This document shows positions 5,376 through 25,586 of a stretch of 28,361 bases of DNA, in pieces. A model generated the notes under the pieces. The model saw only the letters and a program-made list of their open reading frames with translations, ran no database searches and was not told the DNA's origin. Position numbers and translations under genes: made by a program. The DNA is from a virus (taxonomy: Duplodnaviria > Heunggongvirae > Uroviricota > Caudoviricetes). The first letter of the stretch is position 1, and each line of letters starts with the position of its first letter. The stretch lies in the IMG/VR virus record IMGVR_UViG_2698536339_000017; one strand, written 5' to 3'.

Positions 5376-5421
5376 AGGGAAAGGTTGCCATCAGGGGAAG
5401 AAAGGCGGCAGTGCTGCAACT

Positions 5422-5439: not shown

Positions 5440-5443
5440 AAGA

Positions 5444-7212: not shown

Positions 7213-7213
7213 T

Positions 7214-7922: not shown

Positions 7923-7925
7923 AAT

Positions 7926-8129
7926 TCAGTCCCATAGCTGGACGGTCTGCACGGTGGTGGTGGTCGGAATGTCCGGCAGCTCCACCTGCAGCCCGTGAGG
8001 TAAAAAAGGGCCAAATTCGGCAAGCCCCGGATTTGCCTTCAGTACCTGCTCCGTGACACCCTGCGTGCGCCCGTAATGACGCCAGCAAAGCGCGTCCACC
8101 GTGTCATACTGATGCGCACGCACTTTCAT
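7926..8129 (-). CDS. X: Tail protein X
   Basis: 67 aa, MKVRAHQYDTVDALCWRHYGRTQGVTEQVLKANPGLAEFGPFLPHG..., similar to P2 gpX. Confidence 0.85.
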   Translation of the reverse strand: MKVRAHQYDTVDALCWRHYGRTQGVTEQVLKANPGLAEFGPFLPHGLQVELPDIPTTTTVQTVQLWD

Positions 8130-8593
8130 CAGATAAGCTCCACTGTGCAGTGCGGCGCATCCTGTACCCGGCAGATGGCCCAGCGGGCGTCACGCCACAA
8201 ATCACCGCTGGCTTCTGCCAGTTCCTCGCCCCGCTTCACACCGGATGCCGTGGCGTCATAGTCCTGGTAACGTTCGTTGAGCATGGCGCGAGCCCAGCAG
8301 TAAACCGCGTTGAAATAGTGCTGAATTCGCTCGCTTTTCCCGTCCAGCTGTTCCGCCGGAACCTCTGCCAGCGAGGCATATCCCAGCATCTGCTGGCGTC
8401 TGCGAAACTCATACAGCTCTGCGTTGACCTCCGAAATTGCCGACAGCGCAACCTGCTTTAAACGCGGCTGCGTCACCGTGCCGTCAGTGCGCATCACACT
8501 GCGAAACTCCGACAGGTCCACATCAGGCCAGAACGGCGTATTTCTGATGATTTCCGCCTGTTCCGGTGCCTGTTCTGGCGCAACAAACTTCAT
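8129..8593 (-). CDS. L: Head completion/stabilisation protein L
   Basis: Similar to P2 gpL. Start set at MKFVAPEQ (8593), which has an AGGAG-type RBS upstream; the longest ORF extends to 8656. Confidence 0.75.
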   Translation of the reverse strand: MKFVAPEQAPEQAEIIRNTPFWPDVDLSEFRSVMRTDGTVTQPRLKQVALSAISEVNAELYEFRRRQQMLGYASLAEVPAEQLDGKSERIQHYFNAVYCWARAMLNERYQDYDATASGVKRGEELAEASGDLWRDARWAICRVQDAPHCTVELI

Positions 8594-8688
8594 GCTGCTT
8601 TCTCCTGAAATAGAGGGCGGTGGACGGGGTTTTGATGTGGCAGTGCCTTTCGCCACCCCGTGCCGCCCGTGCGCGGGGGCACGTTCTG

Positions 8689-9339
8689 TCAGCGGCTGTC
8701 ATTGCGCAGTCTGCGCTCCAGCTGCTGTTTGTCTTTTTTCACGCCACAGCGGGGATCGAGCTGCAACGCATGGTTGAGATGATTAAGGGCGGAAGCCGGA
8801 TTGCTTTCACTCAGGACAGCGCCAATCGCTTTATGCAGACGCGCCCGTGACTGGTCCGGCATATCCAGACCGTCTGTCAGCTCCAGCGTCTGCAACAACA
8901 GATCGGCATCAAAGCCGGTGGCGGCAAGCATTGCGCTCTGCGCGGCGTCTGACATTTCCTCTGCCAGCACGGTCTGCACATTGCGGTTACCCAGTGGCAT
9001 CACCCAGCCATGACGTAGGGCATGACGCCCGATCTCCAGCGCCCCGGCATAATCTCCGGCATCAATGCGCCACAGCATCACGTACATCAGCACGTCATCC
9101 TGTTGAGTGCCTCCGGCAGCCAGGACACCCTCTGCCCAGGCAGCGTATTTCGGCAGCAGCTCCACCTTGATTTCCGCTTTTTTGACCGTGGACTGAACGC
9201 CCTTGAGACGGCGGCGGTCTTCCGCCAGTTGCAGCAGCATCAGGTCATAGCCCGACGCGTGGCGAACACTGCCGCCCTCGCGGGCGGCCTGTTCAGCCTG
9301 AACGCGCAGGCGATGCTGCCGTGCGGGACTCAGGCTCAT
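8689..9339 (-). CDS. M: Terminase endonuclease (small) subunit M
   Basis: 216 aa with ...DDVLMYVMLWRIDAGDYAGALEIGRHALRHGWVMP..., similar to P2 gpM. Confidence 0.85.
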   Translation of the reverse strand: MSLSPARQHRLRVQAEQAAREGGSVRHASGYDLMLLQLAEDRRRLKGVQSTVKKAEIKVELLPKYAAWAEGVLAAGGTQQDDVLMYVMLWRIDAGDYAGALEIGRHALRHGWVMPLGNRNVQTVLAEEMSDAAQSAMLAATGFDADLLLQTLELTDGLDMPDQSRARLHKAIGAVLSESNPASALNHLNHALQLDPRCGVKKDKQQLERRLRNDSR

Positions 9340-9342
9340 GAA

Positions 9343-10401
9343 TTACGCTCCGGTTTCTGCTGCGGCGGCGCTGAAGTCGCCAATCTGGATGTTTTCCACC
9401 AGTGCGGCACAGCGGTAGTCCTCAACCACATAGGCTTCGTTAACGGATTCAAAGTTTTCAATCCGGTCACGTTTCGGGTTGTCGATAACTGAACGGCGGC
9501 GGGTGTCTTCCTGCCAGTAGATGGACAGGTTATCCAGACGGGTAATCAGCAGTGCATTCGGCGGGAAGAACGGCGCACGCACGGCCTGCAGGCCCCCCAT
9601 GCGTTTCTGGCTGATGATCATATCGGCAGCCAGTTTTTCACTGTTTTCCTGCTCTTTGTTGACCAGCGGGAAATACTTGTCAGACAGCAGTTCACGACCG
9701 CAAATCACCACCAGATCGTCATCGTCCTGGTAGACCACGTCGATAAGCTCATTGACGGCATCCATCACCACGGCGTCCAGGTTGGCATATTCGCCACCTT
9801 TCCCGACTTTCACTGCGCCCGGTGTGGTTTCACCGCCCGTGGTGGTGCTGCCCATGACGTGATCCGGTGCATCCTCACGGATTTTCTGCAGCCAGCCTTT
9901 ATTCACATCCTGCAGTAGCGGGTTTTCGCTACGGTTGGAGGTTTTCGCACGCTTCACGCCGTTAAAGCCGATCATGATGCGGTCCAGTGCCTGACGTTTC
10001 ACGATGGCGTCACGGATACGCACCTGAAAATCCTGAAACTTCGCCCACAGGTCCAGCTTCGCGTAGGTCAGCACCGTGTCAAAGTTGGTCTGCTCGCATT
10101 TATATTCCACATCGACCATCAGCGTCGGATCGACAGGTTCACGCTCTTTCGCGGTGGTATCAGTGGTTCCGGCAATGGTGCTGCCAACTCCCAACCCCAG
10201 CAGCTGACCGGACTGCTCAGTCACTGGCGTGACGTTAATCAGCGTCAGGAAAGCGGCGGACTGCTGGATCTGGTCTTCCAATGTCTGCTGCACGGACGGC
10301 TCTACGGTGAACTTGCTGGACAGTTCTTCAACTGCCACACCGTTCAGACGCGCCAGCTGCTGCAGGTAAGCGTTAAAAGCCAAGCGGGTATTCTTCTTCA
10401 T
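9343..10401 (-). CDS. N: Major capsid protein N
   Basis: 352 aa, similar to P2 gpN across its length. Confidence 0.9.
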   Translation of the reverse strand: MKKNTRLAFNAYLQQLARLNGVAVEELSSKFTVEPSVQQTLEDQIQQSAAFLTLINVTPVTEQSGQLLGLGVGSTIAGTTDTTAKEREPVDPTLMVDVEYKCEQTNFDTVLTYAKLDLWAKFQDFQVRIRDAIVKRQALDRIMIGFNGVKRAKTSNRSENPLLQDVNKGWLQKIREDAPDHVMGSTTTGGETTPGAVKVGKGGEYANLDAVVMDAVNELIDVVYQDDDDLVVICGRELLSDKYFPLVNKEQENSEKLAADMIISQKRMGGLQAVRAPFFPPNALLITRLDNLSIYWQEDTRRRSVIDNPKRDRIENFESVNEAYVVEDYRCAALVENIQIGDFSAAAAETGA

Positions 10402-10417
10402 CGGGTTTTGTGCTCCA

Positions 10418-11251
10418 TCAGCAATTGGTCAGAGTGTCAGCGGGGGCGTTACCGCCTGTTGCACGCTGGCGGTAGTCCTGGCGGCTGTCTTCATGACTCA
10501 GCTTATTCACCAGTTCGTTAAAGGCGGTCTGCTGTGCCTGCAGGGCAGTCTCCAGCTCAGACAGACGTTCTTCCTGCTCAGACAGGGATTTTTCGGTCCG
10601 TGCGCTCAGGTTCTGCTGCTCAGTGGCGACCAGCTCCACGGCCTTATGCACATCAGAGAACCGGGCATCGTCGGACTGCTCTTTTTTGGTGAACAGCGCC
10701 GTGACGCGGGCAAACAGGGACGGCTTGTCCTCCTGGATTTCTTCCAGTTCGATCACCGTTTCCTCTGCGGCGGTAAAGAGATTGGCGGGATTCTGCTTGC
10801 GGTTTGCCAGCGGGTTATGGGCTGCACTGGCGCTGAATGTCAGCATTTCAGTGCCCAGACTGGCAGGGTCATCAGTGGCAGCCAGCCCGACCAGGTAGGC
10901 TTTGCCCGTATCAGCAAACTTTGGGCTGACTTCCATAGAGGTGAATAATTTCTGGCCTTTTTTCACCAGATCCACCAGGGACTCTGTTGGCTCAACGTCG
11001 GCATACAGCGCCATCTTGCCTGCCAGCGGACCTTCCGTGATTTCTTCAGCAAACAGCGCCGTCACCTTGCCGTAGCGGTTAAAGGTGCTGTCCGGCAGAT
11101 AAGACTTGATGTGCTCAAGGTTAATCAGCGCGGTATACACCGCCGGGTTGTAGCTGGCTGCCATCTGTTCCAGCCATTCACGCTGGATTTCGCGTCCGTC
11201 GGTGGTGGCACCTTCCACCCCGATGCGAAAACGCTTTGCTTTCACTGTCAT
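10418..11251 (-). CDS. O: Capsid scaffolding protein O
   Basis: 277 aa; position and composition (acidic coiled-coil C-terminal part) match P2 gpO. Confidence 0.8.
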   Translation of the reverse strand: MTVKAKRFRIGVEGATTDGREIQREWLEQMAASYNPAVYTALINLEHIKSYLPDSTFNRYGKVTALFAEEITEGPLAGKMALYADVEPTESLVDLVKKGQKLFTSMEVSPKFADTGKAYLVGLAATDDPASLGTEMLTFSASAAHNPLANRKQNPANLFTAAEETVIELEEIQEDKPSLFARVTALFTKKEQSDDARFSDVHKAVELVATEQQNLSARTEKSLSEQEERLSELETALQAQQTAFNELVNKLSHEDSRQDYRQRATGGNAPADTLTNC

Positions 11252-11329
11252 GAGCCGTGCTCCGTTAGAAAAAACTTACTGGAGCCTTATGGTTGCGGTG
11301 ATGGGGGCAGTGAAACAATGCGCGGTATT

Positions 11330-11347
11330 TGTACCGACAACCACACA
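11330..11347. promoter_or_regulatory. TGT-N12-ACA Ogr-type late promoter box in the divergent P/O intergenic region
   Basis: TGTACCGACAACCACACA. Centre is about 87 bp from the O start codon, compatible with a -55 activator site plus about 30-nt leader for the O operon. No second clean box for P was found. Confidence 0.45.
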
Positions 11348-11393
11348 AACCGCAGGCGGGGAAAGCCTTCATTCAAGGCTGTAGGTTTGTGCC

Positions 11394-13160
11394 ATGAACA
11401 CCACACTGACACCCGCAGATCTCGATCCCCGTCGGCAGGCCATGCTGCTGTACTTTCAGGGATACCGCGTAGCCCGCATTGCTGAAATGCTGGGCGAGAA
11501 AGTTGCAACCGTTCACAGCTGGAAAAAACGCGACAAGTGGGGTGACTATGGGCCGCTGGATCAGATGCAGCTCACCACCGCCGCACGTTACTGCCAGCTC
11601 ATTATGAAGGAGCACAAAGAAGGGAAAGATTTCAAAGAAATTGATCTGCTGGCGCGCCAGTCGGAGCGCCACGCGCGGATCGGCAAGTTTAACAATGGCG
11701 GCAACGAAGCCGATTTAAACCCTAACGTCGCCAACCGCAACAAAGGCCCGCGCCGTCAGCCTGAAAAGAATGTTTTCACCGATGAACAGATTGAGAAGCT
11801 GGAAGAAATCTTCCATTCCTCCATGTTCAACTACCAGCGTCACTGGTGGGAAGCCGGAAAAACCAACCGCATCCGCAACCTGCTGAAGTCACGCCAGATC
11901 GGCGCGACCTTCTATTTTGCCCGTGAAGCCCTGATTGACGCCCTGCTAACCGGACGTAACCAGATTTTCCTTTCTGCCAGTAAGGCACAGGCGCACGTCT
12001 TTAAGCAGTACATCATCGACTTCGCCAAAGAAGTGGAAGTGGAGCTGAAAGGCGATCCGATGGTGCTTCCCAACGGGGCCACACTGTATTTCCTCGGCAC
12101 CAATGCCCGCACTGCCCAGAGTTACCACGGCAACCTGTATCTGGATGAATATTTCTGGATACCGAAATTCCAGGAGCTGCGCAAAGTGGCTTCCGGTATG
12201 GCTATTCACAAAAAATGGCGACAAACCTATTTTTCCACGCCATCCAGCCTGACCCACAGTGCTTATCCGTTCTGGTCCGGTGCGCTGTTCAACCGTGGAC
12301 GCAACAAAGCCGACAAGGTGGACATCGACCTGTCCCACAGCAATCTGGCCCCCGGCCTGCTGTGCGCAGACGGGCAATACCGCCAGATAGTCACCGTAGA
12401 AGATGCGGTGCGCGGCGGCTGTAACCTGTTCGACCTTGACCAGTTGCGCATGGAATACAGCCCGGACGAATACCAGAACCTGCTGATGTGTGAGTTCGTG
12501 GACGATCTCGCGTCCGTGTTCCCGCTCAGCGAGCTGCAGGCGTGCATGGTGGACAGTTGGGAAGTCTGGACCGACTTTCATGCACTGGCCCTGCGCCCGT
12601 TTGGCTGGCGCGAAGTGTGGATCGGTTATGACCCGGCAAAAGGTACGCAGAACGGCGACAGCGCCGGATGCGTGGTGGTGGCACCGCCAGCCGTGCCGGG
12701 CGGTAAGTTCCGCATTCTTGAGCGTCACCAGTGGCGCGGGATGGACTTCCGCGCCCAGGCTGATGCAATCAAAAAACTGACCGAGCAGTACAACGTGACC
12801 TACATCGGCATCGACTCGACAGGTGTCGGCCACGGGGTTTACGAGAACGTGAAAGCGTTTTTTCCAGCCGTCCGGGAGTTTGTCTACAACCCCAACGTTA
12901 AAAACGCCCTGGTACTCAAGGCCTACGACATTATCAGTCACCGTCGTCTGGAGTTTGACGCCGGACACACCGACATAGCGCAGTCATTTATGGCAATCCG
13001 TCGCGCCACCACCGCCAGCGGCAACCGCCCAACCTATGAAGCCAGCCGCAGCGAAGAAGCCAGCCATGCCGATCTGGCCTGGGCAACAATGCACGCACTG
13101 TTTAACGAACCGCTGCAGGGCGAGTCCGCCAATACCAGCAATATTGTGGAGATTTTTTGA
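11394..13160 (+). CDS. P: Terminase ATPase (large) subunit P
   Basis: 588 aa, similar to P2 gpP. Divergent from O as in P2. Confidence 0.9.
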   Translation: MNTTLTPADLDPRRQAMLLYFQGYRVARIAEMLGEKVATVHSWKKRDKWGDYGPLDQMQLTTAARYCQLIMKEHKEGKDFKEIDLLARQSERHARIGKFNNGGNEADLNPNVANRNKGPRRQPEKNVFTDEQIEKLEEIFHSSMFNYQRHWWEAGKTNRIRNLLKSRQIGATFYFAREALIDALLTGRNQIFLSASKAQAHVFKQYIIDFAKEVEVELKGDPMVLPNGATLYFLGTNARTAQSYHGNLYLDEYFWIPKFQELRKVASGMAIHKKWRQTYFSTPSSLTHSAYPFWSGALFNRGRNKADKVDIDLSHSNLAPGLLCADGQYRQIVTVEDAVRGGCNLFDLDQLRMEYSPDEYQNLLMCEFVDDLASVFPLSELQACMVDSWEVWTDFHALALRPFGWREVWIGYDPAKGTQNGDSAGCVVVAPPAVPGGKFRILERHQWRGMDFRAQADAIKKLTEQYNVTYIGIDSTGVGHGVYENVKAFFPAVREFVYNPNVKNALVLKAYDIISHRRLEFDAGHTDIAQSFMAIRRATTASGNRPTYEASRSEEASHADLAWATMHALFNEPLQGESANTSNIVEIF

Positions 13161-14185
13161 TGGGAAAGAGTAAAAAAAACCGCGTAGCGGCGATGAATCA
13201 GATCCAGCATAAAAGCCAGACTTCAGCCGAAGCATTCAGCTTCGGCGATCCCGTTCCTGTTCTGGACCGCCGTGAACTGCTGGACTATGTGGAATGCGTA
13301 CAGACAGATCGATGGTATGAGCCGCCAGTGAGTTTTGACGGGCTGGCGCGCACCTTTCGCGCCGCCGTGCATCACAGCTCACCGATTGCGGTGAAATGCA
13401 ATATTCTGACCAGTACCTACATCCCTCACCCGCTGCTCAGCCAGCAGGCTTTTTCACGTTTTGTGCAGGACTATCTGGTATTTGGTAACGCCTACCTGGA
13501 GAAACGCACGAACCGCTTCGGTGAAGTTATCGCCCTTGAGCCTGCTCTGGCAAAATACACCCGACGCGGGTTAGACCTGGATACCTACTGGTTTGTGCAA
13601 TACGGTATGACAACCCAGCCGTATCAGTTCACGAAAGGCAGCATTTTTCATCTGATGGAACCGGACATCAACCAGGAGATCTACGGCCTGCCAGGTTATC
13701 TTTCTGCCATTCCGTCAGCCCTGCTCAACGAGTCCGCCACGCTGTTCCGCCGGAAGTATTACATTAACGGCAGTCATGCAGGCTTCATCATGTACATGAC
13801 CGATGCCGCGCAGAACCAGGAGGATGTGAACAACCTCCGCAATGCGATGAAAAGCGCCAAAGGCCCTGGCAACTTCCGCAACCTGTTTATGTACTCGCCT
13901 AACGGCAAAAAGGACGGGCTTCAGATCATCCCGTTGTCAGAAGTCGCGGCGAAGGATGAATTTCTTAACATCAAGAACGTGAGTCGGGATGACATGATGG
14001 CAGCGCATCGTGTGCCGCCACAAATGATGGGGATAATGCCTAATAATGTTGGGGGATTTGGGGATGTAGAAAAAGCTAGTAAGGTATTTGTGAAAAATGA
14101 ATTATTACCATTACAAAAAAGAATGAAAGAATTTAATCATTGGAGCGGTGAAGAAATTATAAAATTCGAGAGATATCAAATTTAG
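13157..14185 (+). CDS. Q: Portal protein Q; last about 50 codons have AT-rich codon usage (recombinant 3' end)
   Basis: 342 aa, similar to P2 gpQ including the C-terminus. Codon composition switches abruptly to AT-rich near 14030. Confidence 0.9.
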   Translation: MMGKSKKNRVAAMNQIQHKSQTSAEAFSFGDPVPVLDRRELLDYVECVQTDRWYEPPVSFDGLARTFRAAVHHSSPIAVKCNILTSTYIPHPLLSQQAFSRFVQDYLVFGNAYLEKRTNRFGEVIALEPALAKYTRRGLDLDTYWFVQYGMTTQPYQFTKGSIFHLMEPDINQEIYGLPGYLSAIPSALLNESATLFRRKYYINGSHAGFIMYMTDAAQNQEDVNNLRNAMKSAKGPGNFRNLFMYSPNGKKDGLQIIPLSEVAAKDEFLNIKNVSRDDMMAAHRVPPQMMGIMPNNVGGFGDVEKASKVFVKNELLPLQKRMKEFNHWSGEEIIKFERYQI

Positions 14186-14191
14186 CAAAGT

Positions 14192-14206
14192 GCCTCTAAA
14201 AGAGGC
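14192..14206. terminator. Short hairpin between convergent Q and DprA-like gene stops (possible bidirectional terminator)
   Basis: GCCTCT-aaa-AGAGGC inverted repeat in the 24-bp gap. Stem is short, so termination efficiency is uncertain. Confidence 0.3.
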
Positions 14207-14209
14207 GCT

Positions 14210-15184
14210 TTAAATCAAGTCTAATGTACTCTGTTTCCCTGGCCATTTTAGCTCTAACAAATACTCCCGGGACTCATTTATGATCATAATCACATCATCA
14301 TAATCCCGTTTTGTTTTTAGCGCTCTAGCCATGTTGCTCTTAACTAAATCAACTGTTCCCTCACAATTAAGATTAAGCGGATTATTAGGTAGGTGAGGTA
14401 CAACCGCAAACACTGGTCTTTTCGCCTTATTTGCAAACTCAGCTTGAGTTATCGTTCCGCTATTTAACGCAGCCTCGATTAAAATTGAACCTGCAGATAA
14501 TCCAACTTGTATCCGATTTCTTTGTACAAATGATTGTTTCTGGGCCGGCCGACCCATAGGATACTCAGAAATCCATGCACCACCTTTATCCAGAATCTCT
14601 TGAGCAAGTCGACTGTTTTGCTTCGGCTTAGCCTCCTCAAGACCATGCGCCAAGACAGCAATGGTTTTTCCTTTTGCCTGTAACGTTGCCTTGTGGGCAT
14701 TCGCATCAGTGCCTATTGCTAACCCACTTACAACAATATACCCAGCAGACACTATCTGATTAGTGATCCGCCTCGTTATTTCTTCCCCTGCAGGGGAGGT
14801 ATCACGGGATCCTACAATTGCGACACCCGGCAATTCTTTGAGTATACTTTTATCCCCTTTTATGTAGAGAATTGATGGTGGATTAGGAGTAAAAGCTAAA
14901 CTAAGAGGATAGAATTCAGACCCATATGGTATTAGCTCCACACCATTAACATGGTGGTTCTCCAATTCAGCGTTCGCTATTAGAAAATCAGTCTCAGATA
15001 TTTTATCTTTTAGAAACCCGTGGCTATTAACCATCTCAGTTAAGTCGCGTATATCACGAATAACATCAAAATCGATAAGCTCAAAGAATTTTAATACACT
15101 TTGATCAGATGCTAGCTTCCCGATTTGAATAGCTAATCCAAGTGTATTTTTTAATTCTTCTGAGTGCACTTTGCTACTCCTCAT
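14210..15184 (-). CDS. DprA/Smf-like Rossmann-fold protein (DNA_processg_A / SLOG-type domain) with about 110-aa N-terminal extension
   Basis: 324 aa with motifs GVAIVGSRDTSPAGEE...GYIVVSGLAIGTDANAHKATLQAKGKTIAVLAHGLE...GGAWISEYPMG...QRNRIQVGLSAGSILIEAALNSGT, matching the conserved DprA core. AT-rich codon usage. Overlaps the upstream gene by 11 bp. Confidence 0.8.
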   Translation of the reverse strand: MRSSKVHSEELKNTLGLAIQIGKLASDQSVLKFFELIDFDVIRDIRDLTEMVNSHGFLKDKISETDFLIANAELENHHVNGVELIPYGSEFYPLSLAFTPNPPSILYIKGDKSILKELPGVAIVGSRDTSPAGEEITRRITNQIVSAGYIVVSGLAIGTDANAHKATLQAKGKTIAVLAHGLEEAKPKQNSRLAQEILDKGGAWISEYPMGRPAQKQSFVQRNRIQVGLSAGSILIEAALNSGTITQAEFANKAKRPVFAVVPHLPNNPLNLNCEGTVDLVKSNMARALKTKRDYDDVIMIINESREYLLELKWPGKQSTLDLI

Positions 15185-15749
15185 AGTTTGCAGTTTCTAG
15201 CAGAGCTAATGGCATTATAACTCCAGCTCCTGCAGACTCCAGTAAATAAAAACACGCAGACAAACTACCGCCTGTTGTTTTAACATCATCTAGTAGTAAC
15301 ACATTTCGCCCCATGAGGTTACCACCCCTAACTCTGATACTAGACATGTGACCAGTAATTGAGCGATCTCCTCCTTCACGATGTGCGCTAGGAACAGTGC
15401 GTGTTCTTTCCAAACAGCAATCAACAATGCCCCGACGGTGAACATTTACGATTCGCTCGGCGACCTCAATCAAAGCCGGTGAAATTCTGCCTTCAGTGTG
15501 AGACGGGACAACTGCTATCGAAAAAGGAGACTCAACAAAACGCCCACCGCCACCTCTGATTACTAACCGCCCAACCTTATCTATAGCTAATCGAGAAAAA
15601 CGGTTAATGGCCCTTTGATGATTACGATTATTTTCATCCTTAAAATCCATCATCTGCCTTGATAGTTCATCGCTATGAGGGTTGCGCTCTCCCAAATGCC
15701 AGTAGGGGTGATACAAGCCACACGATGTAATACTTACGGGTAAAAGCAT
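15174..15749 (-). CDS. ComF-like phosphoribosyltransferase-domain protein
   Basis: 191 aa with a PRPP-binding-type motif NVLLLDDVKTTGGSL near the C-terminus. No obvious N-terminal four-Cys zinc finger. Weak RBS, so the exact start is uncertain. First gene of a two-gene operon with the DprA-like gene. Confidence 0.7.
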   Translation of the reverse strand: MLLPVSITSCGLYHPYWHLGERNPHSDELSRQMMDFKDENNRNHQRAINRFSRLAIDKVGRLVIRGGGGRFVESPFSIAVVPSHTEGRISPALIEVAERIVNVHRRGIVDCCLERTRTVPSAHREGGDRSITGHMSSIRVRGGNLMGRNVLLLDDVKTTGGSLSACFYLLESAGAGVIMPLALLETANYEE

Positions 15750-15879
15750 TCTTTATTCTCATGTAGTCCTAACTCAAACAATGTTAAGCGAAATGATATT
15801 TCATAGACAAACACAAATTTAAGAATAATCTCAATGATCACATTTTTGATTATGAAACAAAGCCAAGAGTTAGCGCGCG

Positions 15880-15898
15880 CTCGTATCCCCGCCACGCC
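15880..15898 (-). other. Candidate cos (cohesive end) core inside a GC-rich island
   Basis: Minus strand reads GGCGTGGCGGGGATACGAG followed by CGCGCGCTAAC. The first 13 nt match the P2/186-family cohesive-end sequence GGCG(A/T)GGCGGGGA as I recall it, and the following GCGCGCT(A/G)AC resembles the sequence next to P2 cos. The island is GC-rich within AT-rich surroundings. Memory-based, not aligned. Confidence 0.35.
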
Positions 15899-16277
15899 TG
15901 CCCGCTTTATGCAGTGGTTTTCATGCACATGCATGACATGAGCAAAAGCCCGCCAGTTCTGGCGGATCTGAGCAAAGACGATCCTCAATCGATCATGCGA
16001 TTTCATGCAGCATAGTCATGCACTGTCAAGGAAGTGAAAATCCGTATCTGAATGGCCACTTGAAAAACGGATCATACGGGTTTACAAAGATGAATGTTCG
16101 CTGTGAACGGGAAGCGGAAGTTAACTTTCAGATAACATAATCCATATGCACGAGAACCTCTAAAATAGAATGGGACACCTAAGCGGGGTACTTACAACGA
16201 TTCTTTCCATATTCACAGTTAACACTCTGTTTGGCGTATTTTTATTCAAATAGCAAACACCAATAAAAGGAGTTTCC

Positions 16278-16559
16278 ATGAACAATATTCCCCCTATACC
16301 ACAGTTAGGAATTTATGTCTCAAAAATCGATCCCACCCTACGTATCACTGTAACCGATGTTGATATTGTTGATGGTGAGGATGATTCTCCTGATGATGAA
16401 TTGTTTTATTTAGTCCACTGGATCGAGGGGGAAGATGAAAGTGATATGACAGCAATGGGATTTGAGCTAGACCCAGTAGAGTGGCAGGCTTTCGTTGAAT
16501 CTGAGCAATTAGTGTTTGAGCGTGATGATCCTACCCACGTAATATGGACACAGGCCTAA
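16278..16559 (+). CDS. Small, very acidic protein of unknown function; native 3' end replaced by IS3 terminal sequence
   Basis: Good RBS (AAAAGGAG) 6 bp upstream of ATG. About 82 native codons with roughly 29 percent Asp/Glu. The last 11 codons (PTHVIWTQA and stop) are encoded by the IS3 terminal inverted repeat starting at 16526. Confidence 0.5.
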
Positions 16560-17422
16560 GCGAGGTTCTTGTTTTCAAATTGTTCCGGACTGAGGCCGCC
16601 ACACCAACTGTGCCGCCGCCACCGATTGTAATCACATTCGATATAATTAAACACCGTTGCCCGCATTATTTCCCGGCTGATAAAGTGTTCTCCATGGATA
16701 CATTCCACTTTCAGCGAATGAAAGAAGCTTTCCACGCAGGCATTATCGTAGCAGCAACCTTTTGCGCTCATACTTCCACGCAGATTATGCCGCTTCAGTT
16801 GCGCCTGATAATCTGCTGAACAGTACTGGCCTCCACGGTCCGTGTGAACGATAACGTTCCGGGGCCTCTTACGCCGCCACAGCGCCATCTGCAGGGCATC
16901 GCAGGCCAGTTGCGCCGTCATGCGTGGCGACATTGACCAGCCAATAACGGCACGTGACCACAGGTCAATGACCACTGCCAGATACAGCCAGCCTTCATCT
17001 GTACGTAAGTACGTGATGTCTCCTGCCCACTTCTGGTTCGGGCCACTGGCGTAAAAATCCTGCTCCAACAGATTTTCTGACACAGGCAGGCCGTGTGCGC
17101 GGTAGCTGACCGGGCTGAACTTCCGGGAGGCCTTTGCCCTCAGTCCCTGACGGCGCAGGCTTGCCGCCACGGTTTTTACGTTAAAGGGGTAACCCTGAGC
17201 ACGCAGTTCATCCGTCAGGCGTGGGGCACCGTAACGCTGTTTTGACCGGGTAAAAGCCGCGAGGACAACGCTGTCGCAGTGTTGGCGGAACTGCTGACGC
17301 GTGCTTATCCTTGTCCGCCGCTGACACCACGTATACCAGCCGCTGCGGGCCACCCGGAGCACGCGGCACATTGCTTTGATGCTGAACTCAGCCTGATGTT
17401 TTTCAATAAAGACATACTTCAT
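16556..17422 (-). CDS. insF: IS3 transposase orfB (InsF-type, DDE integrase domain)
   Basis: 288 aa; sequence recognised as IS3 orfB. Normally expressed as an OrfAB frameshift fusion, which the truncated orfA here cannot provide. Confidence 0.85.
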
Positions 17423-17567
17423 TTCAGGCGCTTCGCGAAGTATGTCGCGGCCTTTTGGAGGATAGCCAGCTCTTCATCCCGTTCTGCCAGCTGGCGTTTG
17501 AGACGTGCAATCTCGGTAGACATCTCCAGTTCACGTTCAGAAGACGTCTGCTGATTTTGCTGTTTAC
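17419..17567 (-). pseudogene. insE: IS3 orfA (InsE-type) remnant, N-terminally truncated
   Basis: Encodes only the C-terminal part ...[48 protein letters not shown]; HTH-containing N-terminus and promoter absent. Confidence 0.75.
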
Positions 17568-17569
17568 AC

Positions 17570-17595
17570 TTCTCCCAAACCAACGTTTATGAAAA
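17570..17595 (+). other. Gin/Hin-type crossover site adjacent to the invertase gene (site C)
   Basis: TTCTCCCAAACC-AA-CGTTTATGAAAA; about 20 of 26 positions match hixL (TTCTTGAAAACCAAGGTTTTTGATAA) as I recall it. Left half identical to the tail-fibre half-sites. Lies 55 bp upstream of the invertase start. Confidence 0.65.
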
Positions 17596-17650
17596 TGCAG
17601 AGATAACGGCTAACTGGCATCATCTCCGGTTTTTATTCAGGAGGATGATC

Positions 17651-18217
17651 ATGCTTATTGGCTATGTACGCGTGTCAACAAATGACCAGAACACCGATTT
17701 GCAACGCAATGCACTGAACTGTGCGGGATGTGAGCGGATTTTTGAGGATAAAATCAGTGGCACCAAGTCCGACAGACCGGGGCTGAAAAAGCTGCTCAGG
17801 ACACTATCGGCAGGAGACACGCTGGTTGTCTGGAAGCTGGACAGACTGGGGCGCAGTATGCGGCATCTTGTTACGCTGATAGAAGAGCTGCGCCAGCGTG
17901 GCGTGAATTTCCGAAGCCTGACTGACAGTATTGATACCAGCACCCCAATGGGCCGTTTCTTTTTTCATGTCATGGGTGCCCTGGCTGAAATGGAACGCGA
18001 ACTGATAGTTGAACGTACCAGGGCGGGGCTGGCTGCAGCTCGTGCTAAAGGCAGAGTAGGTGGACGCCGTCCTAAGTTGACCAGCGAACAGTGGGCACAG
18101 ATTGGGCGTTTACTCGAGGCCGGAGAATCAAGACAGCGTATTGCACTGATTTTTGATGTAGGCGTTTCTACCATTTATCGAAAATTTCCGGCAAATAAGA
18201 ACAATAAATCTCCCTGA
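17651..18217 (+). CDS. Serine recombinase DNA invertase, Gin/Pin/Cin/Hin family
   Basis: MLIGYVRVSTNDQNTDLQRNAL... with catalytic Ser in VRVST and a C-terminal HTH (GVSTIYRKF). Near-identical in motif content to Mu Gin as I recall it. RBS AGGAGG upstream; an in-frame ATG at 17645 is an alternative start. Confidence 0.9.
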   Translation: MLIGYVRVSTNDQNTDLQRNALNCAGCERIFEDKISGTKSDRPGLKKLLRTLSAGDTLVVWKLDRLGRSMRHLVTLIEELRQRGVNFRSLTDSIDTSTPMGRFFFHVMGALAEMERELIVERTRAGLAAARAKGRVGGRRPKLTSEQWAQIGRLLEAGESRQRIALIFDVGVSTIYRKFPANKNNKSP

Positions 18218-18265
18218 ATCAGCTTTATTTTGATTATCCCTGAAAGCAGACAAATACCGTCATTT

Positions 18266-18283
18266 TGTGTGAATAACGGTACA
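18266..18283 (+). promoter_or_regulatory. TGT-N12-ACA Ogr-type late promoter box for the FI operon
   Basis: TGTGTGAATAACGGTACA centred about 85 bp upstream of the FI start codon, the expected -55 position with about 30-nt leader. Confidence 0.5.
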
Positions 18284-18359
18284 ACTGCGCTTAGCTGTTT
18301 GTCAGGCACAATCACTTCAACATAGGGCGAAGCCTAATCCAATCAGGAGGTTCGCCACT

Positions 18360-19532
18360 ATGGCTCAGGATTACCACCACGGGGTGCGCGTTGTTGAAGT
18401 CAACGAAGGCACCCGATCCATTACCACGGTGAGCACCGCCATCGTGGGTATGGTCTGCACGGGCGATGATGCCGATGCAAAAATGTTTCCTCTTAATAAA
18501 CCCGTGCTGATCACTGATGTGCTGACTGCCAGCGGTAAAGCGGGTGAGTCAGGCACGCTGGCTCGTTCGCTGGATGCCATCGCTGACCAGGCAAAACCCG
18601 TGACCGTTGTTGTGCGTGTGCCGCAGGGTGAAACGGAAGAAGAAACCACGACCAATATCATCGGAGCAGTGACCGCTGAAGGTAAAAAAACAGGCATGAA
18701 AGCCCTGTTATCTGCCCAGTCACAGCTCGGCGTTAAACCGCGCATTCTCGGCGTGCCAGGTCACGACACGAAGGCGGTAGCTACTGAGTTGCTGAGCGTG
18801 GCGCAAAGCCTGCGTGGATTTGCTTACCTGTCAGCGTATGGTTGCAAGACAGTGCAGGAAGCAATCACTTACCGTGAAAACTTCAGTCAGCGTGAAGGAA
18901 TGCTGATCTGGCCCGACTTTACTGGCTGGGACACGGTGCTGAATGCCGAAGCAACGGCTTATGCCACCGCCCGTGCGCTTGGTCTGCGCGCCAAAATTGA
19001 CGAGCAGACCGGATGGCACAAAAGCCTGTCCAACGTGGGCGTTAACGGTGTCACCGGAATTTCTGCTGATGTGTTCTGGGATCTGCAGGACCCGGCAACC
19101 GATGCGGGACTGCTGAACCAGAACGACGTCACCACCCTTATCCGCAAAGACGGTTTTCGCTTCTGGGGTTCCCGCTGCCTGAGTGATGACCCGCTCTTTG
19201 CCTTCGAAAACTACACCCGCACGGCGCAGGTGCTGACGGACACGATGGCAGAAGCGCACATGTGGGCGGTGGATAAACCGCTGAATCCGTCGCTGGCCCG
19301 CGACATTATCGAGGGTATCCGCGCCAAAATGCGCAGCCTGGTCAGTCAGGGCTATCTCATTGGTGGTGATTGCTGGCTGGATGAGTCGGTGAACGACAAA
19401 GACACGCTGAAAGCCGGAAAACTCACCATCGACTACGACTACACGCCAGTGCCGCCACTTGAAAACCTGATGCTGCGTCAGCGCATCACCGATCAGTACC
19501 TGGTGAATTTCTCCAGCCAGGTCAGCGCGTAA
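18360..19532 (+). CDS. FI: Tail sheath protein FI
   Basis: 390 aa, similar to P2 gpFI. Confidence 0.9.
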
Positions 19533-19541
19533 GGGGACAAC

Positions 19542-20057
19542 ATGGCTTTACCACGCAAATTAAAACACCTGAACCTGTTTAATGACGGGAACAACTGGCA
19601 GGGGATCGTTGAGTCGCTGACGCTGCCGAAATTTACCCGCAAATATGAGAAGTATCGCGGTGGCGGAATGCCGGGTGCAGTGGATGTGGATCTGGGGCTG
19701 GATGACGGCGCACTGGATACGGAATTTTCCATTGGTGGTACTGAACTGCTGCTGTTTAAGCAGATGGGCAAAGCCACGGTGGATGGTATCCAGTTGCGCT
19801 TTACCGGCTCTATCCAGCGTGACGATACCGGGGAAGTGCAGGCCGTGGAGCTTGTGGTGCGTGGACGTCACAAAGAAGTGGATTCCGGCGAGTGGAAGAC
19901 GGGCGAAAGCAACACCACCAAAGTGACCAGTACCAACAGCTACGCGAAGCTGACTATAAATGGTGAGGTGCTCTATGAAGTGGACCTTATCAACATGGTG
20001 GAAATTGTGGACGGTGTGGACCTGATGGAAGCGCACCGCAACGCCCTCGGCCTCTGA
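19542..20057 (+). CDS. FII: Tail tube protein FII
   Basis: 171 aa, similar to P2 gpFII. Confidence 0.9.
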   Translation: MALPRKLKHLNLFNDGNNWQGIVESLTLPKFTRKYEKYRGGGMPGAVDVDLGLDDGALDTEFSIGGTELLLFKQMGKATVDGIQLRFTGSIQRDDTGEVQAVELVVRGRHKEVDSGEWKTGESNTTKVTSTNSYAKLTINGEVLYEVDLINMVEIVDGVDLMEAHRNALGL

Positions 20058-20111
20058 TGTATCTGAACGGCGCGGGATACCGCGCCAGAACCCAATTTAC
20101 AGGACAGCAAA

Positions 20112-20414
20112 ATGAGCGATAAGCAGACTGAAAAGACCATTCAACTGGATACCCCCATCAAGCGCGGTAAAACAGAAATCACCGAAATTGTGCTGCGTAA
20201 ACCGCAGTCCGGTGCGCTGCGCGGTACACGCCTGCAGGCCATTATGGATATGGATGTAAACGCGATGATGACCGTGATCCCCCGCATCTCCAGTCCGGCA
20301 CTGACTGCACAGGAAATTGCAGAGATGGACCCGGCAGATCTCACTGCCATGTCGGTTGAGGTTGTCACTTTTTTGTTGAAGAAGTCGGTGCTTGCCGGTT
20401 TACCGACAGCCTGA
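20112..20414 (+). CDS. E: Tail assembly chaperone E
   Basis: 100 aa; position between FII and T. Contains the slippery heptamer near its 3' end. Confidence 0.8.
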   Translation: MSDKQTEKTIQLDTPIKRGKTEITEIVLRKPQSGALRGTRLQAIMDMDVNAMMTVIPRISSPALTAQEIAEMDPADLTAMSVEVVTFLLKKSVLAGLPTA

Positions 20415-20548
20415 CGGTTGACGATCTGGTGGCAGATATCGCCACCATTTTTCACTGGCCGCCATCCGTTACTGACGTTATGCCGCTGACCGAAGTGCTG
20501 GAATGGCGGTATAAAGCGATTCAGAGAAGCGGGGCCAACGATGAGTGA
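20112..20548 (+). CDS. E+E': E+E' fusion product made by programmed -1 ribosomal frameshift at T-TTT-TTG (20369-20375)
   Basis: Slippery sequence TTTTTTG sits in the zero frame as acT TTT TTG. The -1 frame stays open from 20375 to a stop at 20546-20548, overlapping the T start, giving about 145 aa as in P2 E+E'. Confidence 0.7.
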
Positions 20549-23500
20549 TAACAACCTGCGTCTGCAGGTCATTCTTAATGCGGTTGACAAGCTCACCCGC
20601 CCATTTCGATCTGCGCAGGCCAGTTCAAGAGAACTGGCTGCTGCTGTCAAAAAATCCCGCGATGCAATAAAGCAGCTTGATCAGGCCGGGAGCAGTCTGG
20701 ACAGCTTCCGAAAGCTGCAGGCAGAAAATCAGAAATTAGGCGACAGGCTGAACTATGCCCGCCAGCGTGCAAATTTGCTCAGTCAGGAACTGGGAGCGAT
20801 GGGGCCGCCTTCGCAACGTCAGGTTGTTGCTCTGGGCCGTCAACGGCTGGCTGTTCAGCGCCTGGAAGAACGCCAGAAAAAGCTGCAGCAGCAGACGGCG
20901 CTTGTGCGTGCTGAACTGTACCGGGCGGGAATTTCTGCGAAAGACGATGCGGGAGCAACTGCCCGTTTAGCCCGTGAAACATCACGTTATAACCAGGAAC
21001 TTTCGAAACAGGAGGCGCGGCTGAAGCGACTGGGGGAAGCTCAGCGCAGGATGAATGCAGCGCGTGCCAGTTATGCCCGTTCGCTGGAGGTGCGTGATCG
21101 TATTGCAGGTGCCGGAGCCACCACCACGGCTGCAGGGCTGGCAATGGGTGCGCCAGTGATGGCGGCAGTAAAAAGCTATACCAGCATGGAAGATGCCATG
21201 AAAGGTGTGGCAAAGCAGGTCAATGGTCTGCGTGACGATAATGGCAACCGCACTGCACGTTTTTATGAAATGCAGGATGCCATCAAGGCTGCCAGCGAAC
21301 AGTTGCCGATGGAAAACGGTGCGGTGGACTTCGCTGCACTGGTTGAAGGTGGTGCGCGCATGAACGTCGCAAACCCTCACGACAGCTGGGAAGATCAGAA
21401 ACGTGACCTGCTGGCCTTCGCCAGTACGGCAGCAAAGGCGGCAACAGCCTTTGAGCTGCCAGCGGATGAACTGTCAGAAAGTCTGGGGAAAATCGCCCAG
21501 CTCTACAAAATCCCCACCCGCAATATTGAACAGCTCGGTGATGCGCTGAACTATCTGGATGATAACGCCATGTCGAAAGGGGCAGACATCATTGATGTGA
21601 TGCAACGTCTGGGCGGTGTGGCTGACCGTCTGGATTATCGTAAAGCGGCGGCGCTGGGTTCCACCTTCCTGACACTGGGCGCTGCGCCAGAGGTTGCAGC
21701 CAGTGCAGCAAACGCGATGGTGCGTGAATTGTCCATTGCCACCATGCAAAGCAAGAGTTTCTTTGAAGGGATGGATCTGCTGAAACTCAATCCTGAAGTG
21801 ATTGAAAAGCAGATGACGAAGGATGCGATGGGAACCATCCAGCGCGTGCTGGAGAAGGTAAACGCGCTGCCGCAGGACAAGCGCCTGTCTGCCATGACTA
21901 TGTTGTTTGGTAAAGAGTTTGGCGATGACGCGGCGAAACTGGCAAACAACCTGCCGGAACTGCAGCGTCAGTTAAAACTGACAGCGGGCAATGATGCGCT
22001 CGGCTCCATGCAGAAAGAATCCGACATTAACAAGGATTCACTTTCTGCGCAGTGGTTGCTGGTCAAAACCGGAGCGCAGAACACCTTCAGCAGCCTGGGC
22101 GAAACGCTGCGCCAGCCGCTGATGGATATTCTGTACACGGTGAAAAGCGTCACGGGGGCGTTGCGTCGCTGGGTGGAAGCTAACCCGGAACTGACAGGCA
22201 CACTGATGAAAGCATCGGCTGTTGTGGCTGCGGTTACCGTCGGCCTCGGCACCTTAGCGGTGGCGCTGGCTGCAGTGCTGGGGCCGCTGGCAGTGATCCG
22301 TCTGGGATTCTCTGTGTTGGGTATCAAAACGTTATCTTCCGTTACGGCAGCAGTAACTCGAACCAGCAGCGCGTTGTCCTGGCTGGCTGGCGCGCCACTG
22401 GCACTGCTGCGACGCGGGCTTGCTTCATCGGGCAACGCCGCAGGTTTACTTACTGCGCTGTTGTCGTCTTTGCGCCGCACGGCATCACTGACGGGAAATG
22501 TCCTGAAAACTGTAGCAGGTGCGCCGGTTGCACTTTTGCGGTCTGGATTATCCGGTTTACGTGCTGTTGCTGTGATGTTTATGAATCCTCTGGCGGTACT
22601 GCGCGGTGGACTGGCCGCCGCAGGCACGGTGCTGCGAGTACTGGCATCTGGTCCACTGGCGATGCTGCGCGTTGCCCTGTATGCCATATCTGGTCTGTTA
22701 GGTGCTCTGCTCAGTCCGATAGGTCTTGTGGTTACTGCACTGGCGGGCGTGGCGCTGGTTGTCTGGAAATACTGGCAACCCATCACCGCATTTCTCGGTG
22801 GCGTGGTGGAAGGATTCAAAGCGGCGGCAGGTCCCATCAGTGCAGCGTTCGAACCGCTTAAGCCCGTGTTCCAGTGGATTGGCGACAAAGTGCAGGCGCT
22901 GTGGGGCTGGTTTACTGATCTGCTGACGCCCGTTAAGTCGACCTCTGCCGAACTGCAGAGCGCAGCGGCCATGGGGCGACGATTCGGGGAGGCACTGGCA
23001 GAAGGGCTGAATATGGTCATGCATCCGCTGGACTCCCTGAAATCCGGCGTTTCCTGGTTGCTGGAGAAACTCGGCATTGTCAGTAAAGAGGCTGCAAAGG
23101 CGAAACTGCCGGAAAGCGTGACGCGTCAGCAACCTGCGACGGTGAAGGCAGACGGTAAAGTGATGATGCCATCGGGTGATTTTCCGTCATGGGGATATGG
23201 CTTTGCGGGGATGTATGACAGCGGCGGCTATATCCCGCGCGGGCAGTTTGGCATCGTCGGTGAAAACGGGCCGGAAATTGTTAACGGCCCGGCAAACGTG
23301 ACCAGCCGGAGAAATACAGCTGCACTGGCTGCCGTTGTCGCCGGAATGATGGGTGTTGCTGCCGCGCCAGCAGAGCTTCCACCGTTGCATCCTTTGGCGC
23401 TTCCCGCAAAAGGCGGTGAAGCGATGGTGAGTCGTGCAGCTAGTGTGCCGCCCATTTACCGGATTGAAGCACCGACGCAGATCATCATCCAGACACAGCC

Positions 23501-25506: not shown

Positions 25507-25586
25507 CGCTGCCGCCATTTTGTCGCCATCGTTAAAAAACAGTGTTTCTAACATCATGATTTTAAACAGCTTAAATTTCAGGCAAC

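What the first reader, a model, noticed from the sequence alone, without database searches (positions are those of the whole stretch)
14210..15749. Two-gene PRTase + DprA-like operon in an AT-rich cargo module next to the portal gene: candidate anti-phage defence system
Two overlapping (11 bp) minus-strand genes encode a ComF-like phosphoribosyltransferase (PRPP-binding motif VLLLDDVKTTGGSL) followed by a DprA/Smf-like Rossmann protein (IVGSR and GLAIGTDANAH motifs). Neither belongs to P2 structural or lysis functions, and their codon usage is far more AT-rich than the flanking phage genes. They sit in the variable region beside portal gene Q and cos, the kind of place where P2-like prophages carry defence cargo. 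DprA- and SLOG-type Rossmann domains and PRTase domains recur in nucleotide-signalling or DNA-sensing immune systems. From memory, a DprA-like/PRTase pair has been reported among P2-hotspot defence systems; I cannot confirm from sequence whether this is the same family or a divergent one. Mechanism is unknown.
Basis: partly seen in the sequence, partly recalled or inferred. Interest (0 to 1): 0.85.

Follow-up and report, generated by a model that had tools for sequence, protein, structure and literature searches.

The report
Short ShosTA-type prophage defence gene pair
The two genes are real and form a toxin-antitoxin style anti-phage module of the known ShosTA kind (PRTase toxin plus DprA-like antitoxin), carried by a P2-like E. 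coli prophage between its portal gene and cos. It is an untested short-toxin subtype, not a new kind of system.

Summary
Two intact minus-strand genes lie in a low-GC island (0.42 against about 0.56) between portal gene Q and the cos core at 15880-15898: a PRTase (15174-15749, 191 aa) and a DprA-like protein (14210-15184, 324 aa).

Both hit PADLOC ShosTA models (ShosA 2.8e-70, ShosT 3.7e-14). Predicted structures match solved ShosA (8zva, E 8.6e-21) and ShosT (8zvc/8zvd, E about 1e-5) best.

ShosTA is a validated anti-phage toxin-antitoxin system, and Rousset 2022 tested a P2-hotspot example. That paper's hotspot table lists this pair's DprA accession (WP_001324531) next to a Pribosyltran protein.

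This pair differs from the characterised APEC O1/KTE181 system:
- The toxin lacks the N-terminal HAD/pyrophosphatase domain, and its sequence resembles ShosT only around the PRPP loop.
- Gene order is toxin then antitoxin.
- The pair sits on the Q side of cos.

The pair is adjacent in 29 of 29 informative viral contigs. It also occurs in phage SopEPhi, a P4-like satellite and Mu-like prophages, never in the sampled loci in a competence locus.

Key residues are conserved: PRPP-loop D154/D155, ssDNA-binding R127/R222, RecA-contact K188.

Verdict: an uncharacterised minimal variant of a known system. Interest is modest.

The parts
15174..15749 (-). Candidate toxin: a stand-alone 191-aa PRTase (short ShosT-like). 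The PRPP loop is L151-S162 (LLLDDVKTTGGS). G127-D128-R129-S130 and H134 are invariant.
   Evidence: ORF. PADLOC ShosT PDLC03962 3.7e-14 and PsyrT 4.9e-6. Pfam Pribosyltran 1.2e-3, below threshold. AF2 pLDDT 90.8. Foldseek PDB top hits are ShosT 8zvc/8zvd/8zvb, then H. pylori ComF 7p0h. Residue conservation.
14210..15184 (-). Candidate antitoxin: a DprA-like protein (ShosA-like), 324 aa, or 319 aa if it starts at GTG 15169. Predicted layout: N-terminal helical SAM-like domain (about 4-79), Rossmann DprA core (82-289), C-terminal helix (292-310) and a disordered tail (311-324).
   Evidence: Pfam DNA_processg_A 1.4e-60. PADLOC ShosA PDLC03961 2.8e-70. 36% identity over 198 aa to APEC O1 ShosA. 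AF2 pLDDT 91.8. Foldseek top hit is ShosA 8zva, E 8.6e-21, TMq 0.71 over 310 columns. R127 and R222 invariant, K188 in 23 of 30.
15177..15182 (-). GAGGAG Shine-Dalgarno-like hexamer inside the 3' end of the PRTase gene, 7 nt upstream of the in-frame GTG at 15169. It suggests translational coupling of the two genes.
   Evidence: Read directly from the sequence. Homologue lengths of 319-320 aa.
14186..14209 (.). 24-bp spacer between the convergent Q and DprA-like stops. It holds the hairpin GCCTCT-AAAA-GAGGC and is a possible bidirectional terminator.
   Evidence: Sequence. The consensus terminator scan did not call it, so this is inference only.
15750..15879 (-). AT-rich 130-bp leader between the cos core and the PRTase start. 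The operon's promoter is presumed to lie here.
   Evidence: No sigma-70 consensus match on the minus strand. Inferred from position only. In relatives the cos-to-PRTase stretch aligns only loosely.
15880..15898 (.). cos core. The plus strand reads CTCGTATCCCCGCCACGCC, which aligns with the P2-type GTGCTTTCCCCGCCTCGCC of APEC O1.
   Evidence: Alignment A3. The core is identical in SopEPhi and the Citrobacter prophage. The exact P2 19-mer is absent at up to 3 mismatches.
13157..14185 (+). P2-type portal gene Q. It is the conserved anchor that converges on the module.
   Evidence: A convergent portal follows the pair in most of the viral loci (26 have a portal match).

Best explanation
The pair is a ShosTA-type toxin-antitoxin / abortive-infection anti-phage module carried as cargo by a P2-like prophage.

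Proposed mechanism, inferred from canonical ShosTA:
1. The 191-aa PRTase binds PRPP through its DD loop. It transfers or consumes phosphoribosyl groups, which disturbs nucleotide metabolism and causes replication-linked DNA damage.
2. The co-translated DprA-like protein does not bind the toxin. It offsets the damage by binding ssDNA and recruiting RecA.
3. Infection removes that protection, either because host shut-off stops resupply of a labile antitoxin or because phage ssDNA or replication proteins divert it. The pre-made toxin then kills or arrests the cell before phage release.

Shown here: gene integrity, family relationships, conserved key residues, strict pairing, and mobile-element context.

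Inferred: toxicity, antitoxin action, the trigger and the phage-defence phenotype.

This subtype lacks the HAD/pyrophosphatase domain of characterised ShosT, so the PRTase would act without built-in removal of pyrophosphate.
For: Family assignment:
- PADLOC ShosA 2.8e-70 and ShosT 3.7e-14.
- Fold matches are best to solved ShosA and ShosT.
- ShosT D331/D332, which are essential for toxicity, align with D154/D155. D155 is invariant and D154 is present in 21 of 22 (PMC11961720, PMC12961424).
- ShosA R139 and R234 (ssDNA binding, essential) align with R127 and R222, both invariant in 30 of 30. ShosA K200 (RecA contact) aligns with K188, present in 23 of 30 (PMC12961424).
- A disordered C-terminal tail is predicted, as in ShosA.

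HAD domain is accessory:
- In the same PRTase subfamily the HAD domain is variously fused at the N-terminus, fused at the C-terminus, or absent. In Alteromonas a separate, only weakly ShosT-like HAD gene sits just upstream. All ten members scanned hit PADLOC ShosT best.

Pairing and context:
- PRTase is followed directly by the DprA-like gene in 29 of 29 informative IMG/VR loci.
- The pair also occurs in phage SopEPhi (orf14/orf15), Citrobacter and Pectobacterium P2-like prophages, a Hafnia P4-like satellite, and Shewanella and Aeromonas Mu-like prophages.
- Low GC marks it as cargo.
- A P2-hotspot ShosTA was experimentally protective.
Against: - No experiment exists for this short subtype in the papers I could search.
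- Sequence similarity to characterised ShosT is limited to about 45 residues around the PRPP loop. At profile level ShosT scores no better than housekeeping PRTases.
- The narrow PADLOC ShosT model PDLC03012 is not hit.
- The fold match to ShosT (TMq 0.52-0.56) is only slightly better than the match to ComF (0.51).
- The ShosA dimer-interface residues L181/F182 and the RecA contact R206 are not conserved.
- No promoter was recognised upstream.
- The acceptor substrate is unknown even for ShosT (PMC12961424).
Confidence: 0.75

Rival explanations
1. The pair is a prophage addiction or stabilisation module only. It is a genuine toxin-antitoxin pair whose selected role is to penalise loss of the prophage or satellite, with no useful phage exclusion.
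For: It has TA-like architecture and sits on mobile elements. ShosTA was first described as a TA system (cited).
Against: It occupies the same hotspots that hold validated defence systems. In the Alteromonas locus it lies next to an AAA_15/AAA_21 gene pair. Canonical ShosTA gives about a 10^6-fold drop in T7 plating.
Confidence: 0.1
2. The pair is a phage-beneficial DNA-processing pair modelled on the competence proteins ComF(C) and DprA. The two proteins would handle ssDNA and load RecA to aid phage recombination, replication or lysogeny, and the PRTase would not be a toxin.
For: H. pylori ComF is the third-best fold hit, close behind ShosT. NCBIfam comF matches weakly at 1e-5. The DprA-like protein is about as similar to true DprA (3maj, E 2.2e-31) as to ShosA.
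Against: The comF score of 25.5 bits is far below the 233-bit cut-off. There is no ComF-type four-Cys zinc finger: only C10 is conserved at the N-terminus. The best defence-model hits are ShosA/ShosT. The module is variable cargo with foreign GC, not core phage machinery.
Confidence: 0.07
3. The pair is a decayed or silent remnant with no current function in this rearranged prophage.
For: The prophage copy in the window is rearranged next to a partial IS3. No promoter was recognised. RefSeq does not annotate the PRTase ORF.
Against: Both ORFs are intact and 100% identical to those in un-rearranged prophages. The breakpoint at 16526 lies outside the module and beyond cos. The exact PRTase protein is recorded on at least 1000 contigs. 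Conservation across genera is strong.
Confidence: 0.04

Closest known systems
ShosTA of E. coli APEC O1 / KTE181 (Rousset 2022 'DprA+PRTase', Millman 2022; structures 8zva-8zvd, 9vzo, 9w2p)
   Same: It pairs a PRTase-domain toxin with a DprA-like protein built from a SAM-like domain, a Rossmann core and a C-terminal helix. It is a two-gene operon in the gpA-Q hotspot of P2-like prophages. The PRPP-loop DD pair, the two essential ssDNA arginines and the K200-equivalent lysine are conserved. The best fold matches are to this system.
   Different: The toxin is 191 aa rather than 424 aa and has no N-terminal HAD/PPase domain. Sequence similarity is confined to the PRPP loop. Gene order is toxin then antitoxin here, versus shosA then shosT in APEC O1. 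The pair lies between Q and cos rather than between cos and gpA. ShosA identity is only 36%. Dimer residues L181/F182 and the RecA contact R206 are not conserved.
PsyrTA / RqlHI
   Same: It has a DprA-like antitoxin and a toxin ending in a PRTase domain. Both window proteins hit the models weakly (PsyrA 1e-30, PsyrT 4.9e-6, matching only the C-terminal PRTase part of the PsyrT model).
   Different: The PADLOC PsyrT model is 689 positions long with the PRTase part at its C-terminal end; from memory the upstream part is a RecQ-like helicase region. The window toxin has no such part. The ShosA/ShosT models score higher.
ComF(C)-DprA competence proteins
   Same: They combine a PRTase-fold protein with a DprA-fold protein. 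ComF 7p0h is a close fold neighbour.
   Different: They are not orthologues: comF and dprA equivalog scores are below cut-off. There is no zinc-finger N-terminus. The genes are adjacent on mobile elements rather than in competence regulons.
SLOG (LDcluster4/DprA-like, about 186 aa) + PRTase pair listed as P2-hotspot system 98 in Rousset 2022 supplements
   Same: It is another small PRTase paired with a DprA/SLOG-fold protein in the same hotspot.
   Different: The partner is much shorter and its order is SLOG then PRTase. Its PRTase aligns only weakly with this family (hhalign probability 74%).
Retron-associated PRTase effectors and Ophion OpnC
   Same: These are defence-associated PRTases reported to fall in one clade with the ShosT and PsyrT PRTases (10.1101/2025.09.30.679545).
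   Different: Their partners differ (reverse transcriptase with msDNA, or rSAM with PHP). They have no DprA-like antitoxin.

Membership tests
ShosTA, broad sense (PRTase toxin + DprA-like antitoxin, as in PADLOC models) | Both proteins match the family's profile HMMs | tested here: met
   ShosA PDLC03961 2.8e-70 and ShosT PDLC03962 3.7e-14, covering profile positions 62-211 of 237.
ShosTA, broad sense | The two genes are adjacent, co-oriented and conserved as a pair | tested here: met
   29 of 29 informative viral loci, plus P2-like, P4-like and Mu-like contexts.
ShosTA, broad sense | PRPP-binding acidic pair needed for toxicity (ShosT D331/D332) | tested here: met
   D154/D155 align with D331/D332. 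D155 is in 22 of 22 and D154 in 21 of 22.
ShosTA, broad sense | Antitoxin ssDNA-binding arginines (ShosA R139, R234) and RecA-contact lysine (K200) | tested here: met
   R127 and R222 are in 30 of 30. K188 is in 23 of 30, with R in 3 more. R206 and L181/F182 are not conserved.
ShosTA, broad sense | The toxin is toxic, and the antitoxin neutralises it without binding it (type IV) | not testable with these tools
   This needs expression and pull-down experiments.
ShosTA, broad sense | Anti-phage phenotype | not testable with these tools
   Only the APEC O1/KTE181 type has been tested.
ShosTA, narrow sense (APEC O1/KTE181 type) | Two-domain ShosT: N-terminal HAD/PPase (1-164) plus PRTase (165-424) | tested here: not met
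   The ORF cannot exceed 191 aa because a TAA lies two codons upstream of the ATG. There is no HAD hit and no hit to PDLC03012.
ShosTA, narrow sense (APEC O1/KTE181 type) | Clear sequence homology of the toxin to ShosT beyond the PRPP loop | tested here: not met
   BLASTP gives 16 of 44 identities only. hhalign covers 47 columns. PDB phmmer finds nothing at E<=0.01.
ShosTA, narrow sense (APEC O1/KTE181 type) | Same fold for toxin and antitoxin | tested here: met
   ShosT 8zvc/8zvd are the top hits (E about 1e-5, TMq 0.52-0.56). ShosA 8zva is the top hit (E 8.6e-21, TMq 0.71).
PsyrTA/RqlHI | Long multi-domain toxin (689-position PADLOC PsyrT model; helicase part recalled from memory) with a C-terminal PRTase | tested here: not met
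   The toxin is 191 aa. The PsyrT model matches only its positions 577-686 of 689.
ComF / DprA competence orthologues | Scores above the NCBIfam equivalog/subfamily cut-offs (comF, GntX, dprA) | tested here: not met
   comF 25.5 bits against a 233.55 cut-off. GntX 13 against 304. dprA TIGR00732 186.4 against 191.15. PRK10736 168.6 against 495.
ComF / DprA competence orthologues | Conserved chromosomal competence context | tested here: not met
   In every pair-bearing locus sampled the pair lies in a prophage, a satellite or a region with defence-type ATPase neighbours.

The most novel reading that the evidence does not exclude
The HAD-less, stand-alone PRTases paired with DprA-like proteins could be a mechanistically distinct branch. 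Like ComF they may act on nucleic acid, for example by binding or phosphoribosylating ssDNA or replication intermediates, rather than on free purines. The DprA-like partner would then repair or shield that specific lesion. This would also explain why no base acceptor has been found for ShosT.
Probability: 0.1. Interest if true: 0.7.

Novelty: new variant of a known kind. Interest (0 to 1): 0.28.

Why it matters
All current ShosTA mechanism work rests on the two-domain toxin. A natural PRTase-only version tests whether the pyrophosphatase domain is dispensable. It is also a smaller toxin in which to look for the unknown acceptor substrate.

The short form is widespread. The profile search found 1044 cluster representatives at E<=1e-10.

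There is also a practical point. RefSeq leaves the toxin ORF unannotated in E2348/69, AMSHJX01 and NCTC9041. Protein-based defence finders run on those annotations would therefore see only a lone 'DprA' and miss the system.

Tried and rejected
- Exact P2 cos 19-mer: no match at up to 3 mismatches in the window or in AMSHJX01. The cos core was found instead by alignment with the APEC O1, SopEPhi, Citrobacter and Pectobacterium regions.
- Sequence search of the PRTase against PDB: nothing at E<=0.01. The family profile found only generic PRPP-loop matches.
- Promoter scan: no minus-strand promoter upstream of the PRTase.
- ORF 15734..16006 (90 aa) as a third gene or an N-terminal toxin fragment: rejected. 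It spans cos, is in another frame, and has no family hit.
- Search for the window's protein strings in the Rousset supplements: not found, because the files are truncated. The link came from accession WP_001324531 instead.
- Kimelman 2012 and Sberro 2013 could not be read. I could not check whether the original Shewanella ShosT is a short form.
- The 226-aa and 208-aa members listed in the PRTase cluster are unrelated sequences and were ignored.
- Rfam found no RNA family in the module.
- I did not run the costly genome contigs or metagenome scans, because the viral contigs and look-ups were sufficient.

Full report
**1. Observation**

The window has two minus-strand ORFs exactly as described: 15174..15749 (191 aa) and 14210..15184 (324 aa). 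All quoted motifs are present.

The 11-bp overlap applies to the longest ORFs. An in-frame GTG at 15169 follows a GAGGAG hexamer at ideal spacing, and most homologues are 319-320 aa. The real junction may therefore be a 4-nt gap. Either way the genes form one tightly coupled operon.

The module is compositionally foreign. GC is 0.41-0.45 and GC3 0.33-0.36, against GC 0.56 and GC3 0.68-0.69 for the terminase and capsid genes.

**2. Source and setting**

The region is 100% identical to P2-like prophages of E. coli AMSHJX01 and EPEC E2348/69. These are integrated between rcdA and ybjL. 22 of 5426 complete E. coli genomes carry at least 80% of 14100-16300.

Portal gene Q ends 24 bp from the DprA-like stop. 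Alignment with APEC O1, phage SopEPhi, and Citrobacter and Pectobacterium prophages places the cos core at 15880-15898. The exact P2 19-mer is not present. The pair therefore lies between Q and cos, with about 130 bp of AT-rich leader between cos and the PRTase start. No consensus promoter was recognised there.

**3. Identity**

*DprA-like protein*
- Pfam DNA_processg_A scores 1.4e-60. PADLOC ShosA PDLC03961 scores 2.8e-70.
- It is 36% identical to APEC O1 ShosA over 198 residues.
- Its AF2 model (pLDDT 91.8) matches solved ShosA 8zva best (E 8.6e-21, TMq 0.71, 310 columns). True DprA structures follow.
- The model has the same layout as ShosA: an N-terminal helical SAM-like domain, a Rossmann core, an extra C-terminal helix and a disordered tail.

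*PRTase*
- It is only weakly recognised by Pfam (1.2e-3, below threshold). It hits PADLOC ShosT PDLC03962 at 3.7e-14 and PsyrT at 4.9e-6.
- Its model (pLDDT 90.8) matches ShosT 8zvc/8zvd/8zvb best (E about 1e-5, TMq 0.52-0.56). H. pylori ComF comes next (0.51), then housekeeping PRTases (0.40-0.48).

**4. What is known about the family**

ShosTA was first described as a toxin-antitoxin pair. It was then shown to protect against phages by Millman et al. and by Rousset et al., who cloned a 'DprA+PRTase' pair from the P2 hotspot of APEC O1 and saw protection against T7 and lambda.

Two structural studies give the following picture (PMC11961720, PMC12961424):
- ShosT has an N-terminal HAD-like pyrophosphatase domain and a PRTase domain.
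- PRPP binding (D331/D332, R285) is essential for toxicity. The pyrophosphatase mutant R56A only marginally reduces toxicity.
- ShosT disturbs purine metabolism and causes DNA duplications and filamentation.
- ShosA does not bind ShosT. It binds ssDNA (R139, R234) and RecA (K200, R206), and it is intrinsically unstable.
- Triggers include T7 Gp0.7-mediated host shut-off and probably phage ssDNA.

Rousset's hotspot table lists a locus with 'DNA_processg_A + Pribosyltran' as WP_001324531 + WP_001324530. WP_001324531 is the DprA accession annotated in E2348/69, AMSHJX01 and NCTC9041. This very pair was therefore catalogued, but not tested.

**5. How this pair differs from characterised ShosTA**

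In APEC O1 the order is Q, cos, shosA (327 aa), shosT (424 aa), then gpA. The window differs as follows:
- The toxin is 191 aa and cannot be longer, because a stop lies two codons upstream of the ATG. It has no HAD domain.
- It does not hit the narrow ShosT model PDLC03012.
- It resembles ShosT in sequence only over about 45 residues around the PRPP loop. At profile level ShosT scores no better than APRT or PRPP synthetase.
- Gene order is toxin then antitoxin.
- The pair sits on the Q side of cos.

The functionally tested residues mostly survive:
- ShosT D331/D332 correspond to D154/D155.
- ShosA R139 and R234 correspond to R127 and R222, both invariant in 30 homologues.
- ShosA K200 corresponds to K188, present in 23 of 30.
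- L181/F182 and R206 are not conserved.

**6. Is the HAD-less form a real family?**

A profile search of 1.84 billion representatives found 1044 proteins at E<=1e-10. Most are stand-alone proteins of 175-200 aa. Among close relatives:
- Some carry a HAD domain at the N-terminus, like ShosT (P0279).
- Some carry it at the C-terminus (P0287).
- P0198 matches the PRTase models in two stretches, suggesting a duplicated PRTase.
- All ten relatives scanned hit PADLOC ShosT best.

In Alteromonas a separate HAD gene sits immediately upstream of a PRTase/DprA-like pair. The HAD module thus looks like an optional accessory of one PRTase clade.

**7. Pairing and context**

The PRTase is directly followed by the DprA-like gene in 29 of 29 informative IMG/VR loci. 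26 of those loci also have a P2 portal match, in most cases convergent just downstream.

The pair also occurs in:
- the sequenced P2-like phage SopEPhi (orf14/orf15, both annotated 'unknown');
- Citrobacter and Pectobacterium P2-like prophages;
- a Hafnia P4-like satellite beside the Ogr/Delta gene;
- Shewanella and Aeromonas Mu-like prophages;
- a Vibrio element.

No locus that carried the pair was a competence locus. PHROGs holds both families as 'unknown function'.

**8. Interpretation**

The best reading (about 0.75) is a ShosTA-type abortive-infection module with a minimal toxin. The rivals are an addiction-only TA pair, a phage-beneficial ComF/DprA-like DNA-processing pair, and a silent remnant. 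Each is less well supported, as set out in their entries.

The mechanism steps are inferred from the canonical system. No experiment on the short form was found.

**9. Novelty**

The kind is known, the locus type is known, and the pair is listed in a published supplement. What is new is modest: an uncharacterised domain-minimal subtype with reversed gene order and a different position relative to cos.

I could not read Kimelman 2012. If the original Shewanella ShosT is also short, even this novelty shrinks.

Noticed in passing
window 16527-17568, with junctions at 16526 and 17569: A partial IS3 (about 1040 bp; orfB intact, orfA truncated) joins two prophage segments in inverted relative order. 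Window 1-16526 equals AMSHJX01 locus L003 5902-22427. Window 17569-23482 equals L003 5914-1 reversed. No complete E. coli genome in the collection has this junction. The window's first base coincides with the other breakpoint, so the source may be a contig that starts at a second IS3 copy.
   Followed up: partly
L001 19086-20178, L003 21086-22178, L002 13086-14243 (equivalent to window 15174-15749): Current RefSeq/PGAP annotation has no CDS for the PRTase ORF in E2348/69, AMSHJX01 or NCTC9041. Only 'DprA' is annotated. The exact protein does exist in older GenBank and UniRef records. Protein-based defence finders run on these annotations would miss the toxin.
   Followed up: partly
window 16278-16559 (+): This is a very acidic small protein (23 Asp/Glu and 3 Lys/Arg in 93 aa), phrog_17127, unknown function. 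It is annotated as a 111-aa hypothetical or DUF8087 protein in intact prophages, and here it is cut by the IS3 junction at 16526. It recurs next to DinI in many P2 hotspot listings. Its charge suggests a possible DNA mimic.
   Followed up: no
window 25584-25662 (-): The RybB sRNA gene (Rfam 105 bits) lies just past the prophage late control gene D (ends 25197), on the ybjL side. The prophage attachment site is therefore at or beside rybB, with rcdA on the integrase side in intact copies.
   Followed up: no
window 17645-18217 (+) and 4-818 (+): A Hin/Pin-type DNA invertase (phrog_125, 2e-101) is present. In AMSHJX01 it sits next to alternative tail-fibre C-terminus and tail-fibre assembly genes, a host-range switching segment. 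In E2348/69 the baseplate-to-tail-fibre block (V, W, J, I, H) is inverted relative to this window and AMSHJX01.
   Followed up: no
L020 3823-8801 (Alteromonas macleodii): A separate HAD-hydrolase gene lies directly upstream of a short PRTase plus DprA-like pair. It is followed by an AAA_15/AAA_21 ATPase and a partner gene. It looks like a 'split ShosT' inside a defence island. The HAD similarity to the ShosT N-terminal domain is weak (33% over 39 aa).
   Followed up: partly
L002 14244-16364 (NCTC9041) and L001 28058-29575 (E2348/69): KAP-family P-loop NTPase genes occur as further variable cargo in these prophages. One lies just beyond cos from the PRTase/DprA pair, and the other lies next to the CI repressor genes.
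   Followed up: no
window 15734-16006 (-): A 90-aa ORF overlaps the PRTase start and spans the cos core. It has no family hit in Pfam, PADLOC or NCBIfam. It is most likely not a gene.
   Followed up: partly
protein cluster look-up: The 90%-identity cluster returned for the PRTase also lists unrelated 208-226-aa proteins (sequences). This appears to be a quirk of the clustering, not biology.
   Followed up: yes
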